This document shows, piece after piece, positions 1-5,615 of a DNA stretch of 32,000 nt; the stretch's first letter is position 1; the number at the start of each line of letters is the position of its first letter. Under the pieces are notes generated by a model. The model made no database searches. It had not been told where the DNA came from and worked only from the letters and a program-made list of their open reading frames with translations. A program made the position numbers and the translations under genes. This DNA is from Candidatus Heimdallarchaeota archaeon (lineage in GTDB: Archaea > Asgardarchaeota > Heimdallarchaeia > JABLTI01), in assembly GCA_030614005.1 (NCBI GenBank), contig JAUWKS010000002.1, positions 1-32,000 on the forward strand, written 5' to 3'.

Positions 1-536
1 AAAGTATTGTTATTAGAAACAGCAAATAAAAAGATTAATTGTTTTAACTAGGCAATTCCTTTGAATATGTAAATTTAATTGAAGTATCTATTTGTATAAC
101 ATTTTGCTTTAATACAAAAAAGCAACCTCTAGAGATAAAACAATAAAAAAAGTAAAAACGGGAATCTCATTAGAACGCTTTTCCCAGAAATCACCTTTTA
201 CACTTTTGAAAAAACGTTGCATAAAAATAGCTTAATAATGGCTATTTTTTAGAGAATTTTATATGTTCTTTATCTTTTGAAAAAAAATATTCTAAACTGA
301 CTGATAATATCGAGAATTAAATCAATATTTGGGTACTCATAAATAAAAGAAACGGAATTAATCTAGTGATTAATATGATTTGTAAAATAATGCCAATGAT
401 TTTAATACTCTCGACACCCTTGGATCCAAAGTCAATTACCTTTTCCTAAATACATGACTACTTAAAATAGATTATTCAGATATTAGCTTGCTTAAATAGT
501 TTTGACAAGGAAGTAATTCTTTAAAGTAAAATTACG

Positions 537-1385
537 GTGTTAACATTGCTGGGGTCAATAGATTGCCGCAAGATTGTTGTGCTAGGCAATCCAAATGTTG
601 GAAAAACGAGTATTATACAACGGTATGTTCACAATCAATTTAAAACCAAATATTACGCCACTCTTGGTTTTAATATTTATACTCGATATATTGATATTGC
701 TGATAAAAAAGTTGGATTATCAATATGGGATGTCGGCGGACAAGAAGCTTTCAAGCAATTTGCTTTTCGATATTTGATTGAAGCAGATGCAGCTATTTTC
801 GTTGCTGATGTTTCTAGACCTGAAACCATTGAGAGTCTTTCTACTTGGAATGAGCAATTAGCTCAAGTCACCAATAGAAAAATACCTAAAATTATCCTTT
901 TCAATAAAATTGATTTGAATTATGATATGAATGTCATATCTGACGAAGTGATTAAATCCGAAGTCCGTAAAGAATTCAATGGAATTGTTTTTGCTAGTGC
1001 TAAAACTGGTCAGAATGTTATCGACATTTTTTCAATGATTGCAAAGATGCTCACTACGTGGGATGAAGAATTTGGTGTCCCTAGTAAAAGGAAAGTTCTC
1101 TTCAATAGCGCTTTTGAGGAAAAAACGTTACCTGTGATGTTCTTTTCAGGACCTAATTGTGATTTTTGTGAACCTGTTTTTAATAGATTAACAAACATTT
1201 CTTCAGAATATCCTATGAATATTGAAGTCGTAGATGTTGAAGCAGACAAAAATGCTGCAACTGAACACGGCATTCTTTCAATACCAACAACAATCATTGG
1301 AACTAAAATCATTGTTGGAGAATCTAATGAACAAATATTACGAACAATTGTTAGTGATGAATATATTCAGCTTTTTGGTAAATAG
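537..1385 (+). CDS. Rab-like small GTPase fused to a C-terminal thioredoxin/glutaredoxin-like domain
   Basis: G1 GNPNVGKT, G2 YATLG, G3 WDVGGQE, G4 NKID, G5 SAKTG; last ~85 aa FFSGPNCDFC (CxxC) ... GILSIPT (cis-Pro motif). GTG start; exact start uncertain. Confidence 0.88.
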   Translation: MLTLLGSIDCRKIVVLGNPNVGKTSIIQRYVHNQFKTKYYATLGFNIYTRYIDIADKKVGLSIWDVGGQEAFKQFAFRYLIEADAAIFVADVSRPETIESLSTWNEQLAQVTNRKIPKIILFNKIDLNYDMNVISDEVIKSEVRKEFNGIVFASAKTGQNVIDIFSMIAKMLTTWDEEFGVPSKRKVLFNSAFEEKTLPVMFFSGPNCDFCEPVFNRLTNISSEYPMNIEVVDVEADKNAATEHGILSIPTTIIGTKIIVGESNEQILRTIVSDEYIQLFGK

Positions 1386-1486: not shown

Positions 1487-2269
1487 TTGAAAATCAAAGA
1501 GGGCGATTTGATAATAATATCTATTTCTGGTGTTAAGAAATGGATGGTAAAAGTTGAAGCAGGAAAAGAATTCCATACTCATAAAGGACCTGTCGTTTTA
1601 GATGAGCTCATTGGTTTAGAATATGGTTCTAGCATTGTTAATTCTAAAGATGCTACGTTCTTTCTTTGGAAACCTTCTCCTTATGATTATCGTGATGCAA
1701 TCACTCATTCTACTCAAGTAATTTACCAAACAGATATCGCTCAAATCATCTTTACTGCTGGTATTTGTAGTGGCGTAAGGGTTATTGAAGCTGGGACAGG
1801 TAGCGGGAGTCTAACTTCAGCTTTAGCTCGTTATGTTACACCAGGTGGGAAAGTCTTTTCTTATGATTTCAAGGAAAAGCATCAAAAAGTTGCTCGTAAA
1901 AACATTGAGAAACTCGGATTATCCGAAGCCGTTGATTTTAAAATCAAAGATGTCACAACTGGTTTTGATGAAAAAGATGTTGAGGCAGTTATCTTGGATA
2001 TGCCCAATCCTTGGGACGTAATTGAACATGCTCGTGATGCTTTAATGGGCGGTGGTAAATTAGTAATATTCGTACCAACATATACACAAGTAGATCAATC
2101 ACTAGCAAAACTGGTAGAAAACAATTTTTATCAAATTGAAGCCTTTGAAGTAATTCGCAGAGATCTTACTACACGTATTGGTGCAATACGACCGGCAACA
2201 CGTATGATAGGTTTTACCGCTTTTTTGGTTGTTGCTAGGAAAGGATTCTCTCTATCTGAAGAGCGCTAA
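1487..2269 (+). CDS. trmI: tRNA (adenine-N1)-methyltransferase, TrmI/Trm61 (GCD14) family
   Basis: FHTHKG N-terminal motif, TQVIYQTD, SAM-binding EAGTGSGSLT, LDMPNPW, FVPTYTQV, RPATRMIGFTAFL. Confidence 0.95.
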   Translation: MKIKEGDLIIISISGVKKWMVKVEAGKEFHTHKGPVVLDELIGLEYGSSIVNSKDATFFLWKPSPYDYRDAITHSTQVIYQTDIAQIIFTAGICSGVRVIEAGTGSGSLTSALARYVTPGGKVFSYDFKEKHQKVARKNIEKLGLSEAVDFKIKDVTTGFDEKDVEAVILDMPNPWDVIEHARDALMGGGKLVIFVPTYTQVDQSLAKLVENNFYQIEAFEVIRRDLTTRIGAIRPATRMIGFTAFLVVARKGFSLSEER

Positions 2270-3898: not shown

Positions 3899-4312
3899 AT
3901 GGCTGAAGATCCCGAAGTTCAAAGAAAAATCTATCAACTTCTCCGAGAAATTGGTGAATATACTGATTTGGAGGCGTTAGCTGTCGTTAATCGTGAAGGT
4001 ATGAAAATTTCCTTCTTTGCAAAGCAAGATGCCAATGCCGATCTTATCTCAGCTATTTCTGCAGCAATACTGTCAACTGGTGAACAAGCTGTTTCTATTA
4101 ATGAGCATGGTGAATTGCTTGAAGTGCTTGTGAGAGGAGAACATGGATTTACCATATTAACGAATGCTGGTGATTATATCCTAATTGGAACATCTTTAGA
4201 GCTTAATGCTATGGGTTTAACAATTAGGGTTTTACGCAAATATGCCACTAAATTGAAAGACATCATCGGTGGGGAATGTCAGGATGATTTAGGGCCCATT
4301 AGTTTAGAATGA
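3899..4312 (+). CDS. Roadblock/LC7 (MglB-like) domain protein
   Basis: ALAVVNREG ... DLISAISAAILSTGEQAV ... GELLEVLVRGEHGFTILTNAG ... MGLTIRVLRKYATKL: typical roadblock pattern and size. Confidence 0.9.
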   Translation: MAEDPEVQRKIYQLLREIGEYTDLEALAVVNREGMKISFFAKQDANADLISAISAAILSTGEQAVSINEHGELLEVLVRGEHGFTILTNAGDYILIGTSLELNAMGLTIRVLRKYATKLKDIIGGECQDDLGPISLE

Positions 4313-4337
4313 AAATTTAAAGTGGTTCGAGAAAAAC

Positions 4338-5615
4338 ATGACTGTTCCGTTTGAGCTTCAAATGATTCATAGACTTTCGGGAGTACAGCTTTTTTCCCAT
4401 CGTTTTAGAGAAGACATTAAGCTTGAACCTACACTAATCTCTGGTTTTATATCTGCAGTAATTACTTTTGCAGAGGAGTTGAAACCTTCTGATGGAAAGG
4501 AAATCATCACATTTATTGATAGAGGTGATTTTGTTTTACAAGTAGAACCCGGTGAGCGTGTCATTGGGCTCCTCATCTTAAGTTGTAAAGATTCATCATT
4601 TAAAGAAAAGTTGAGAATCCTTGTTGAAGAATTTGAAAACCGTTATCATGCTCTAATTGTAGATTGGAGTGGTATTTCTTCAGGATTTGATGATTTTGAA
4701 GATGATGTTAAACAACTTATTTCCCGTAAACCTATTAGTCCGTATCATATTCCAAAATTAGTTGATACTGATCGAGCACCAAAGAAACTAGATGATATGA
4801 AATGGGCTATTATTACTCGTATAAATGGTAAAAATGATATTACTACAATCAGTGAGGAATTAGAAATAAGCATTGATGTTGTTCAAAGTATCATTTCGTA
4901 TTTTGAAGAGTCAGGGTTAGTAAAAACCTATTTTGAAATCAGTGATGAGAGCATGTTAGAACTTACTAAAAAAGGGTTAAATGCTCTTGAAGTAGGATCA
5001 GATGGCTATAATGAAATTAATCATTTGATAGGTGAATATGGCATCAAAATATTGTCACTCATTGGCACAGAAAGATCATTACTAGACATTAAGAAGAAAG
5101 TAAAATTATCTCATGAACGAGTTTGTGAATTAGTTGAAAAACTTGTATCCGAACGTTTTCTAGAAGTGCTTCCTAAATGGAAAGTTGTTCTCGATAAGAA
5201 CGCATTTCAATTCACACGTTCCCTTGAGTTTATTGACGATCTCTTCCAACTTATTTATGATGAATCAGATAGTTGGTTAGATGTACGAGCACTTACACGT
5301 ATGAAAAGAAATACTGCCGCTCTTCTGCTCATCAAAGATGAAGAACTCGCCCGTTTAATTAGTGATAGTAATGAATACTTAATCGATCGAAACAATCTGA
5401 AGAAAGTCCTCAGTTCTGAGGTAAATCTTAAGTCTATTGCTGAGCGATTAGAAACGCTTTTCAAAGTTTTACAAAACAATATCGAACGTGAGATCGGGTC
5501 AAATCTTACACGAGGTATTATGTGTAAAGTTTACAAACGGTTGAATTCAGATTATACTGAATTAATTAAACAACAAACAGAACTTGATATTATGATAAAT
5601 TGGTTAAATCAATAA
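4338..5615 (+). CDS. Longin-like domain + tandem winged-helix protein (NPRL2-like architecture)
   Basis: N-terminal SGVQLFS...TLISGFISAVITFAEEL...FENRY...W.G..F..F longin pattern; PYHIPKL then RINGKNDITTISEELEISIDVVQSIISYFEESGLV (wHTH); second wHTH around SLLDIKKKVKLSHERVCELVEKLVSERFL. 25 nt after the roadblock gene. Confidence 0.7.
   Translation: MTVPFELQMIHRLSGVQLFSHRFREDIKLEPTLISGFISAVITFAEELKPSDGKEIITFIDRGDFVLQVEPGERVIGLLILSCKDSSFKEKLRILVEEFENRYHALIVDWSGISSGFDDFEDDVKQLISRKPISPYHIPKLVDTDRAPKKLDDMKWAIITRINGKNDITTISEELEISIDVVQSIISYFEESGLVKTYFEISDESMLELTKKGLNALEVGSDGYNEINHLIGEYGIKILSLIGTERSLLDIKKKVKLSHERVCELVEKLVSERFLEVLPKWKVVLDKNAFQFTRSLEFIDDLFQLIYDESDSWLDVRALTRMKRNTAALLLIKDEELARLISDSNEYLIDRNNLKKVLSSEVNLKSIAERLETLFKVLQNNIEREIGSNLTRGIMCKVYKRLNSDYTELIKQQTELDIMINWLNQ

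What the first reader, a model, noticed from the sequence alone, without database searches (positions are those of the whole stretch)
537..1385. Rab-like GTPase fused to a CxxC thioredoxin domain
A single ORF holds all five G motifs, a ~25-aa linker, then a thioredoxin/glutaredoxin-like domain with intact CDFC and the IPT cis-Pro motif. The redox domain sits where eukaryotic Rabs carry their prenylated Cys tail. Inference: a redox-gated GTPase switch, or a GTP-regulated disulfide reductase.
Basis: partly seen in the sequence, partly recalled or inferred. Interest (0 to 1): 0.7.

Follow-up and report, generated by a model that had tools for sequence, protein, structure and literature searches.

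The report
Rab-like GTPase fused to thioredoxin
One family of Heimdall-group (Asgard) archaea from marine sediments has a conserved gene that joins a Rab-like GTP switch to a small CxxC thioredoxin domain; I found no description of this combination, and it may link GTP signalling to thiol redox chemistry, but its function is untested.

Summary
Window 537-1385 (+) is one ORF of 282 aa, or 279 aa if the TTG at 546 is the start. It has a complete Rab-like G domain, a sequence-conserved 25-residue connector, and an MJ0307/MTH895-type thioredoxin fold with CDFC and Ile-Pro-Thr.

The fusion is not an assembly artefact. Contigs from three independent studies bridge the junction. About 50 full-length protein clusters (58-90% identity) share the architecture, as do all 12 sampled genomes of this Heimdallarchaeia family. 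It was not found in 388 other Asgard genomes, nor among 1.84 billion representative proteins outside its own cluster. No intact split form turned up.

New findings:
- Each genome also has a paralogue with the same two-domain plan but D-x-W-S in place of CxxC.
- Two family members lack the first Cys.
- The CxxC dipeptide varies between members.
- Complex prediction docks the thioredoxin edge strand onto G-domain strand β6 (score 0.77, best control 0.00). The switch regions and the CxxC were not among the confident contacts.

Most likely (about 0.4) this is a GTP switch carrying its own thioredoxin effector. A redox-sensor reading (0.25) and a non-redox adaptor reading (0.2) remain open. It is a new variant of a known kind, of moderate interest.

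The parts
537..1385 (+). Whole ORF, 282 aa from GTG 537 (279 aa if the TTG at 546 is the start), stop TAG 1383-1385: Rab-like GTPase-thioredoxin fusion
   Evidence: full-length homologues
441..536 (+). Conserved upstream region with a TATA-like TTAAATA (492-498) and GGTG (535-538); probable own promoter and ribosome-binding site (inferred)
   Evidence: Alignment with the same-genus genome G081 is conserved from about 440 to the start codon and breaks down further upstream; sequence read
570..1052 (+). G domain (residues 12-172), Ras superfamily, Rab-like
   Evidence: Pfam Ras 9.3e-34; PDB Rab7/Ypt7 2e-23; Foldseek top hit Rab7 3law, E 7e-14
585..608 (+). G1/P-loop GNPNVGKT, with an invariant Pro at the position of Ras Gly12
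729..743 (+). G3 DVGGQ with the catalytic-type Gln69
903..914 (+). G4 NKID (no Cys, unlike the redox-sensitive NKCD of Ras)
   Evidence: invariant in 40/40
975..1004 (+). Strand beta6 (residues 147-153) followed by G5 SAK (154-156); beta6 is the predicted docking strand for the thioredoxin domain
   Evidence: G149, V151, F152, A153, S154, A155 and K156 are invariant; the lowest-error contacts are 148-153 with 256-261
1053..1127 (+). Connector, residues 173-197 (TTWDEEFGVPSKRKVLFNSAFEEKT); conserved in sequence but modelled with low confidence
   Evidence: W175 and others; pLDDT below 50
1128..1382 (+). Thioredoxin-fold domain, residues 198-282, of the small archaeal MJ0307/MTH895 (Thioredoxin_3) type
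1158..1169 (+). CxxC motif C208-D-F-C211
   Evidence: C211 in 40/40 and C208 in 38/40 homologues, dipeptide variable
1284..1289 (+). cis-Pro motif P250-T251
   Evidence: invariant; aligned to the VP/IP of 1NHO and 1FO5
1302..1319 (+). Thioredoxin edge strand, residues 256-261 (TKIIVG), predicted to pair with G-domain beta6
   Evidence: K257, V260 and G261 are 95-100% conserved

Best explanation
This is a genuine two-domain protein specific to one Heimdallarchaeia family. A Rab-like GTP/GDP switch has its beta-sheet extended by a rigidly docked, small CxxC thioredoxin domain. I read the thioredoxin domain as the switch's built-in effector. The very conserved switch I/II face, which the interface prediction does not place in contact with the tail, would bind regulators and a partner according to the nucleotide state. 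That binding would bring the attached thiol-disulfide site to its client protein, or the client to the partner, much as Rab-like RJL proteins carry a J domain.

Shown: one ORF; all GTPase motifs; a thioredoxin fold with CxxC and cis-Pro; conservation of the fusion; its restriction to one family; and the Cys-less paralogue.

Predicted only: the beta6-to-beta4 docking.

Inferred: GTP binding and hydrolysis, disulfide exchange, the existence of a client, and the direction of control.
For: (1) The fusion is real and under selection.
- Full-length homologues of 278-291 aa at 58-90% identity form about 50 clusters.
- It is present in 12 of 12 genomes of the family.
- Its identity to same-family orthologues (61-64%) is not far below that of the neighbouring TrmI (68-72%).
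- Contigs from three studies bridge the junction without indels.

(2) The G domain looks like a working switch with partners. G1-G5 and Gln69 are invariant, and the switch I/interswitch and switch II residues are the most conserved part of the protein. Mean conservation is 0.82 for the G domain against 0.64 for the thioredoxin domain.

(3) The thioredoxin domain keeps both Cys in 38 of 40 members and the cis-Pro-Thr in 40 of 40. It has the fold of solved thioredoxins.

(4) The complex prediction of residues 1-176 against 184-282 supports binding.
- Score 0.77, best of 3 controls 0.00. That mark was reached by 58 of 80 solved complexes and 2 of 110 mismatched pairs; these counts hold only roughly because my own alignment was used.
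- The runs agree in at least 95% of contacts, and partner pLDDT is at least 81.
- Foldseek found no solved chain matching both domains, so the pass is unlikely to come from memory of a solved complex.
- The interface is beta6/alpha4/alpha5 with thioredoxin beta4/alpha3 and the loop before cis-Pro. Neither the switch regions nor CxxC are among the confident contacts.
- Thioredoxin interface residues are more conserved than the rest of that domain (0.72 against 0.62).

(5) The genome has two thioredoxin-reductase-like genes (333 and 314 bits against TIGR01292, just under its cut-off of 343), so a reductant supply is plausible.

(6) The Cys-less paralogue keeps the former active-site positions invariant as D-x-W-S. 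This fits a client-binding site that can work with or without thiol chemistry.
Against: - There is no biochemical or expression evidence of any kind.
- The CxxC dipeptide is unusually variable (TW, DW, LW, DF, EF, SL, AS, RS, TN), unlike catalytic thioredoxin families.
- Two members lack the nucleophilic first Cys while the second Cys is invariant, which is odd for a reductase.
- A whole paralogous subfamily works without either Cys.
- The full-length AF2 model is only moderate (mean pLDDT 69; switch I and the connector below 50).
- No client or partner was identified. The downstream Roadblock gene has orthologues throughout the class, so it does not co-occur specifically with the fusion.
Confidence: 0.4

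Rival explanations
1. Redox-gated GTPase. The CxxC acts as a thiol-disulfide sensor, and its state is passed through the docked interface to the adjacent guanine-base-binding loops (G5 SAK directly follows beta6; G4 NKID follows beta5). This would change nucleotide exchange or hydrolysis. The Cys-less paralogue would then be a redox-blind version of the same switch.
For: - The predicted interface uses beta6, which leads straight into G5, and includes the loop just before the cis-Pro of the active site (residues 242-248 and 251).
- The variable CxxC dipeptide with conserved Cys positions fits a switch better than a tuned catalyst.
- The second Cys is invariant.
- From established knowledge: thiol modification next to the G4 motif (Ras Cys118 in NKCD) is known to change nucleotide exchange in eukaryotic Ras-family GTPases.
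Against: - Redox changes in thioredoxin folds are structurally small and local (general knowledge).
- CxxC itself is not in the predicted interface, and the interface is far from switch I/II.
- The eukaryote-type redox-sensitive Cys positions are absent: G4 is NKID and the P-loop is GKTS.
- No terminal oxidase was found in this 90%-complete genome, so an oxygen signal is not obviously relevant.
Confidence: 0.25
2. Non-redox adaptor. The thioredoxin fold is a protein-binding or structural module of the GTPase, as in redox-inactive thioredoxin-fold proteins. The two Cys would be a structural disulfide, a metal ligand pair or an evolutionary remnant, and no catalytic thiol chemistry would be involved.
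For: - The paralogous subfamily has the same architecture with invariant D201-x-W203-S204 and a retained cis-Pro. It is even more conserved than the CxxC subfamily (82% against 71% mean column identity).
- P0047 (A..C) and P0049 (S..C) lack the first Cys.
- The thioredoxin Pfam score is only marginal (25.0 against 24.8 bits).
Against: Both Cys are kept in 38 of 40 members across sequences as low as about 60% identical, within a domain whose mean conservation is only 0.64. The cis-Pro-Thr typical of active thioredoxins is invariant.
Confidence: 0.2
3. A function tied to the translation and tRNA-processing neighbourhood, for example control of RNase P, TrmI or ProRS, because the gene always sits between Rpr2 and TrmI-ProRS.
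For: The order PDCD5-like / S19e / Rpr2 / Ras-Trx / TrmI / ProRS is conserved in every family genome examined and in metagenome contigs.
Against: - At least 10 kb around the gene is syntenic within this one family, so the adjacency carries little information.
- In sister families TrmI lies in a different context with no GTPase beside it.
- Intergenic gaps of 84-125 nt and a conserved TATA-like element upstream suggest the gene is transcribed on its own.
Confidence: 0.08
4. Assembly or gene-calling artefact: two separate genes joined by a chimeric contig or a missed stop.
For: The window's first 440 nt are not supported by other assemblies, so this contig end is imperfect.
Against: - The frame is open with no stop.
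- Contigs from runs X1, X2, X3 and X6 (three studies) span nt 1015-1199 without indels.
- The fusion is present in 12 of 12 family genomes and about 50 independent clusters.
- The apparent short forms are cut at contig ends (P0123, P0051) or diverge about 100 nt before a contig end (P0050).
Confidence: 0.01

Closest known systems
Asgard/archaeal Rab-like small GTPases (e.g. Thorarchaeota Rab, PDB 7EZB; Lokiarchaeal Rab-like proteins of Surkont & Pereira-Leal 2016, PMC4915359) and eukaryotic Rab7/Ypt7
   Same: The G-domain fold and all nucleotide-binding motifs match. The best solved matches are Rab7/Ypt7 (E 2e-23), and Thor-Rab scores 1.5e-19. The nearest unfused relatives (33-40% identity) are annotated Rab family GTPases of Asgard archaea. 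As in those proteins, there is no prenylatable C-terminal Cys.
   Different: It carries an 85-residue thioredoxin domain and a conserved connector after helix alpha5. RabF motifs are only partly kept: LGFNI against IGADF, GLSIW against TMQIW, YLIEA against FYRGA (alignment). The G domain sits on a long branch of its own in a quick tree. Pro is invariant at the Ras Gly12 position.
Small archaeal thioredoxins MJ0307 (PDB 1FO5) and MTH895 (PDB 1NHO); Pfam Thioredoxin_3
   Same: It has the minimal thioredoxin/glutaredoxin-like fold of about 85 aa. CxxC lies at the start of helix 1 and the cis-Pro before strand 3, both aligned residue for residue.
   Different: Those are free-standing proteins with CPYC/CPHC motifs. 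Here the domain is the C-terminus of a GTPase, and the dipeptide is variable (mostly x-W). The score against the MJ0307 equivalog model is 28 bits against a cut-off of 92.75, so it is not an orthologue.
RJL/Rbj (DNAJC27): Rab-like GTPase with a C-terminal J domain (PDB 6JMG)
   Same: A Rab-like G domain is followed by a small C-terminal domain from the protein-folding and quality-control toolbox, acting as a built-in effector. 6JMG appears among the Foldseek hits of the full model through its G domain.
   Different: The appended domain is a J domain rather than a thioredoxin fold. RJL is eukaryotic. There is no evidence of common descent of the architecture; this is an analogy only.
Redox-sensitive Ras-superfamily GTPases (Ras Cys118 in NKCD; Rho GxxxxGK(S/T)C) - from established knowledge
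   Same: The idea that thiol chemistry near the guanine-binding loops can modulate a small GTPase.
   Different: The sensitive cysteines are absent here (NKID; GKTS followed by I). Any redox input would have to come from the appended domain.

Membership tests
Ras superfamily small GTPase | G1 GxxxxGK[ST], G2 Thr, G3 DxxG, G4 NKxD, G5 SAK and a Rossmann-like G-domain fold | tested here: met
   Pfam Ras E 9.3e-34 and TIGR00231 E 8e-25. The motifs are invariant in 40 homologues. Foldseek against Rab structures gives TMt 0.73-0.83.
Ras superfamily small GTPase | GTP binding and hydrolysis | not testable with these tools
Rab family sensu stricto | Five RabF motifs (Pereira-Leal & Seabra, as used in PMC4915359) | tested here: not met
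   The alignment to Rab7 shows only partial matches: LGFNI/IGADF, GLSIW/TMQIW, AFKQFA/RFQSLG, YLIEA/FYRGA, FVADVS/LVYDVN. The protein is therefore 'Rab-like', not a Rab.
Rab family sensu stricto | C-terminal hypervariable tail ending in prenylatable Cys | tested here: not met
   The protein ends ...YIQLFGK with no C-terminal Cys; a folded thioredoxin domain occupies that position.
Thioredoxin-fold thiol-disulfide oxidoreductase (Pfam Thioredoxin_3 / MJ0307-like) | beta-alpha-beta-alpha-beta-beta-alpha thioredoxin fold | tested here: met
   The AF2 domain model has pLDDT 87-93 with that topology. Foldseek top hits are thioredoxins, TM 0.63-0.69, rmsd 1.5-2.5 A over about 86 residues. Pfam Thioredoxin_3 scores 25.0 bits against a cut-off of 24.8.
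Thioredoxin-fold thiol-disulfide oxidoreductase (Pfam Thioredoxin_3 / MJ0307-like) | CxxC at the N-terminus of helix 1 and a cis-Pro loop | tested here: met
   C208-D-F-C211 and I249-P250-T251, aligned to those of 1NHO and 1FO5. In the family, CxxC is in 38/40, the second Cys in 40/40 and P-T in 40/40.
Thioredoxin-fold thiol-disulfide oxidoreductase (Pfam Thioredoxin_3 / MJ0307-like) | Disulfide reductase activity, reduced by a thioredoxin reductase | not testable with these tools
   Two TrxR-like genes exist in the genome (332.8 and 314.2 bits, cut-off 343.45); activity is unknown.
MJ0307 family thioredoxin (NCBIfam TIGR00411, equivalog) | Score above the curated equivalog cut-off | tested here: not met
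   28.3 bits against a cut-off of 92.75.
Redox-sensitive Ras/Rho-type GTPases | Cys in NKCD (G4) or directly after GK[ST] (P-loop) | tested here: not met
   G4 is NKID in 40/40; the P-loop is ...VGKTS followed by I/V.

The most novel reading that the evidence does not exclude
The protein is a self-contained redox-to-GTPase transducer. The dithiol/disulfide state of the docked thioredoxin domain would allosterically set the nucleotide state of a Rab-like switch, or the reverse. It would come with a Cys-less paralogue as a redox-blind counterpart. To my knowledge this would be the first small GTPase with a built-in thiol-disulfide module, and it occurs in the archaeal group closest to eukaryotes.
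Probability: 0.25. Interest if true: 0.7.

Novelty: new variant of a known kind. Interest (0 to 1): 0.45.

Why it matters
Asgard archaea carry large, poorly understood sets of Ras-superfamily GTPases; 33 places in this genome match the query. Almost nothing is known about what these proteins control. Here the output or input module is attached to the switch itself, which gives a concrete handle: the chemistry (thiol-disulfide exchange) can be assayed in vitro alongside GTPase activity. The natural Cys-less paralogue is a ready-made control.

If coupling is shown, it would add a regulatory principle, built-in redox control or redox output, to small-GTPase biology. It would also show how Asgard lineages invent GTPase effectors by domain shuffling.

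If the activities prove independent, the gene remains a well-documented lineage-specific fusion of modest interest. It has no eukaryotic counterpart, so it says little directly about eukaryogenesis.

Tried and rejected
- Other Ras+thioredoxin fusions. A phmmer search with residues 176-282 against 1.84 billion representatives gave only the family's own cluster as a close hit. The rest were stand-alone or multi-thioredoxin proteins, none with a Ras domain among those I scanned. A divergent thioredoxin fused to a GTPase elsewhere would be missed.
- ESM Atlas. Searches by features and by shape found only plain small GTPases.
- The 521-aa Roadblock-Ras-X proteins of another Asgard family (G250/G251) matched the profile to position 218. 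Their C-terminal 186 residues show no thioredoxin similarity (hhalign probability 0.4%; no Pfam hit), so this lead was rejected.
- Origin of the fusion from synteny. Sister families have TrmI in a different context with neither a GTPase nor a thioredoxin beside it, so this was uninformative.
- Partner by co-occurrence. The downstream Roadblock gene has orthologues (41-53% identity) in all 51 class genomes sampled. The longin-wHTH gene has only weak relatives outside the family. No specific link could be made.
- Short 'split' forms. P0123 and P0051 are cut by contig ends. The P0050 contig diverges about 100 nt before its end.
- G-domain tree. Each subfamily is a well-supported clade on a long branch, but their sister relationship is unresolved. 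This was a quick tree because the careful search did not finish.
- Expression. No RNA holder was listed among the public runs.
- The runs laid were contigs, not raw reads, so this was a contig-level rather than read-level junction check.
- Literature. Five full-text searches and three papers on Asgard or archaeal small GTPases gave no mention of a GTPase-thioredoxin fusion. The library lacks most subscription journals.
- Earlier notes of this scan hold no look-alike sequence. The word search returned only unrelated CobW-type GTPase systems.
- Terminal oxidases (COX1, cytochrome bd) were not found in this 90%-complete genome.

Full report
**What is there**

Window 537-1385 (+) is one uninterrupted ORF of 282 aa with a GTG start and a TAG stop. 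The TTG at 546 is the more likely start. It gives MLGSIDCRK, the N-terminus of most homologues, and it lies 7 nt after GGTG.

Residues 12-172 are a Ras-superfamily G domain: Pfam Ras 9.3e-34, Roc 1.7e-26, TIGR00231 8e-25. The best solved relatives are Rab7/Ypt7 (2e-23), and a Thorarchaeota Rab scores 1.5e-19. The full-length AF2 model matches GTP-bound Rab structures (Foldseek E 7e-14, TM by target 0.73-0.83).

Residues 198-282 are a small thioredoxin fold.
- Pfam Thioredoxin_3 scores 25.0 bits, just over its cut-off of 24.8.
- The tail alone hits the archaeal thioredoxins MTH895 (1NHO, 1.8e-5) and MJ0307 (1FO5, 7.4e-5), with CxxC and cis-Pro aligned.
- A separate AF2 model of the tail has pLDDT 87-93 over the domain and the beta-alpha-beta-alpha-beta-beta-alpha order.
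- Its top 50 Foldseek hits in the PDB are almost all thioredoxins.

**Is the fusion real?**

Yes.
- A search of 5.8 billion proteins returned about 50 clusters of 278-291 aa covering 95-100% of the query at 58-90% identity. Where named, they are labelled Heimdallarchaeota or Asgard group.
- In GTDB representative genomes, the profile hits all 11 other genomes of the window's own family (two genera) plus the window's genome. It hits none of 388 other genomes of the phylum with this architecture at E <= 1e-40.
- Logan contigs of four public runs from three studies (marine sediment, cold seep) lie across the domain junction (nt 1015-1199) with no insertion or deletion.
- The three short relatives are not natural split forms. 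Two are cut by contig ends, and the third contig diverges into unrelated sequence about 100 nt before its end.

**Conservation pattern**

In 40 aligned members, all G motifs are invariant: P-loop G-x-P-x-VGKTS, T42, D-[VI]-GGQ, NKID and SAK. The switch I/interswitch and switch II residues are also invariant or nearly so. Pro is invariant at the position of Ras Gly12.

The G domain is more conserved than the thioredoxin domain (0.82 against 0.64 mean column conservation).

In the thioredoxin domain:
- The second Cys is invariant.
- The first Cys is present in 38 of 40 members. P0047 has Ala and P0049 has Ser.
- P250-T251 are invariant.
- The dipeptide between the cysteines varies widely (TW, DW, LW, DF, EF, SL, SW, EW, AS, RS, TN).

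The only other recurrent Cys is C10, in 32 of 40 members. The 'linker' carries invariant or near-invariant W175, F179, G180, P182, K184, F193, L198 and P199. Even so, it is modelled without confidence.

**A second subfamily**

Eleven of the 12 family genomes gave a second hit to the profile; none passed the threshold in G081. In this genome it lies at G000:C73:30676-31476(-) and encodes 273 aa. It is a complete Ras-type G domain followed by a tail that aligns to the thioredoxin domain. At the CxxC positions the tail has D-A-W-S, and it keeps the Pro-Thr.

This subfamily is a tight clade of its own (67-94% identity). D201, W203, S204, P243 and T244 are invariant.

A profile-profile comparison aligns the two subfamilies over 252 columns covering both domains (probability 100%, E 1.2e-45). 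The simplest history is one fusion followed by duplication and loss of the cysteines in one copy. A quick G-domain tree supports each subfamily as a clade but does not resolve whether they are sisters, so this history remains an inference.

**How the domains sit**

I sent residues 1-176 and 184-282 as two chains to the complex predictor, each with its family alignment.
- The model supports binding: score 0.77, best of 3 controls 0.00.
- That mark was reached by 58 of 80 solved complexes and 2 of 110 mismatched pairs. These counts hold only roughly because my own alignment was used.
- The three runs share at least 95% of contacts, and partner pLDDT is at least 81.
- No solved chain in the Foldseek search matched both domains, so the pass is unlikely to be memory of a known complex.

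The lowest-error contacts pair G-domain strand beta6 (148-153) with thioredoxin strand 256-261. This gives one continuous sheet. Helices alpha4 and alpha5 pack on the last thioredoxin helix and on the loop 242-248 that precedes the cis-Pro.

Beta6 runs directly into the G5 SAK loop. Switch I/II and the CxxC are not among the confident contacts. The interface residues of the thioredoxin domain are somewhat more conserved than the rest of it (0.72 against 0.62). This is a prediction, not a measurement.

**Context**

Within the family the gene always lies in this order: PDCD5-like and S19e (opposite strand), then Rpr2, then Ras-Trx, TrmI, ProRS, Roadblock and a longin-wHTH protein.

At least 10 kb is syntenic in all these close relatives. 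In sister families TrmI sits elsewhere with no GTPase beside it. The neighbourhood therefore says little about function.

Intergenic gaps of 84-125 nt and a conserved upstream stretch with a TATA-like TTAAATA (492-498) suggest a separate transcription unit.

The Roadblock gene has orthologues in all 51 class genomes sampled, so it is not specifically linked to the fusion.

The genome encodes two thioredoxin-reductase-like proteins. No terminal oxidase was found at 90% completeness. Public runs that hold the sequence are marine-sediment and cold-seep metagenomes.

**Interpretation**

The data support a rigid two-domain protein in which a working GTP switch and a thioredoxin-type site act as a unit. 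I favour a switch with a built-in effector (0.4).
- The highly conserved switch face, which the interface prediction does not place in contact with the tail, would bind regulators and a partner in a nucleotide-dependent way.
- That would position the attached thiol-disulfide site on its client.
- This needs no long-range allostery.
- It matches how Rab-type proteins work and how RJL proteins carry a J domain.
- It also explains a Cys-less paralogue that keeps the site invariant.

The redox-sensor alternative (0.25) draws on three points: the closeness of the interface to G5, the variable dipeptide, and the invariant second Cys.

The non-redox adaptor alternative (0.2) draws on the Cys-less subfamily and the two members without the first Cys.

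A role tied to the tRNA and ribosome genes nearby (0.08) and an artefact (0.01) are unlikely.

**Comparison and novelty**

The G domain is Rab-like but fails the strict Rab tests. RabF motifs are only partly kept, and there is no prenylatable tail, as in the archaeal Rab-like proteins described in PMC4915359.

The tail is a Thioredoxin_3/MJ0307-like domain but not an MJ0307 orthologue (28 bits against a cut-off of 92.75).

The redox-sensitive cysteines of eukaryotic Ras and Rho are absent.

Papers on Asgard small GTPases list fusions with roadblock and longin domains and note extensive lineage-specific domain shuffling. They do not mention a thioredoxin fusion (PMC10933270; bioRxiv 10.1101/2020.10.19.343400). 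Full-text searches found none either. Earlier notes of this scan contain no look-alike.

I class it as a new variant of a known kind, a small GTPase with a new accessory domain. It is restricted to one Heimdallarchaeia family and is of moderate interest.

Noticed in passing
window 1-440: The first 440 nt of the window (the start of contig C9) hold no ORF. Contigs of runs X1 and X6, from different studies, leave the window at position 441 with a shared different sequence. Similarity to the same-genus genome G081 also ends there. In all relatives an Rpr2 (RNase P) gene lies at this place, and no confident Rpr2 match exists anywhere in this assembly. This is probably a mis-joined or strain-specific contig end.
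   Followed up: partly
G000:C73:29176-32976 (L029; paralogue at L029:1486-2307, - strand): Cys-less Ras + thioredoxin-like paralogue (273 aa, D-A-W-S in place of CxxC). Its 3' end faces that of a conserved 258-aa helical protein of unknown family. A further 176-aa small GTPase lies upstream of that helical gene. The same arrangement is seen in five other genomes of the family.
   Followed up: partly
L023 (G250:C108:1-3405), ORFs 841-2406 and 3-713, - strand: Another Asgard family carries tandem genes for proteins of about 520 aa: an N-terminal roadblock-like region by sequence, then a Ras domain, then a 186-aa C-terminal region with no Pfam match and no thioredoxin similarity.
   Followed up: partly
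window 585-608 and homologues: The P-loop has an invariant Pro at the position of Ras Gly12 (G-x-P-x-VGKT) in both fused subfamilies. From memory, G12P is the one Ras Gly12 substitution that is not activating. I did not explore this further.
   Followed up: no
G000:C60:1188-1919 (- strand) versus window 1487-2269: The genome has two TrmI/GCD14 tRNA methyltransferase genes, 48% identical. The TrmI of sister families is about as similar to the window copy (42-47%) as the second copy is. The copy next to the Ras-Trx gene may therefore be a lineage-specific duplicate.
   Followed up: no
whole genome G000: 33 places in this 3.6-Mb genome match the query at E <= 0.001. Most are small Ras-type GTPase domains, and several lie in open frames of 250-560 aa, which suggests other fusions. 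One match (C123:51679-51870, query 198-259) is to the thioredoxin part only.
   Followed up: no
window 3899-5615: The Roadblock/LC7 gene and the adjacent 425-aa longin-like + wHTH gene are syntenic with the fusion throughout the family. The Roadblock has orthologues across the whole class. The 425-aa protein has only weak relatives outside the family.
   Followed up: partly
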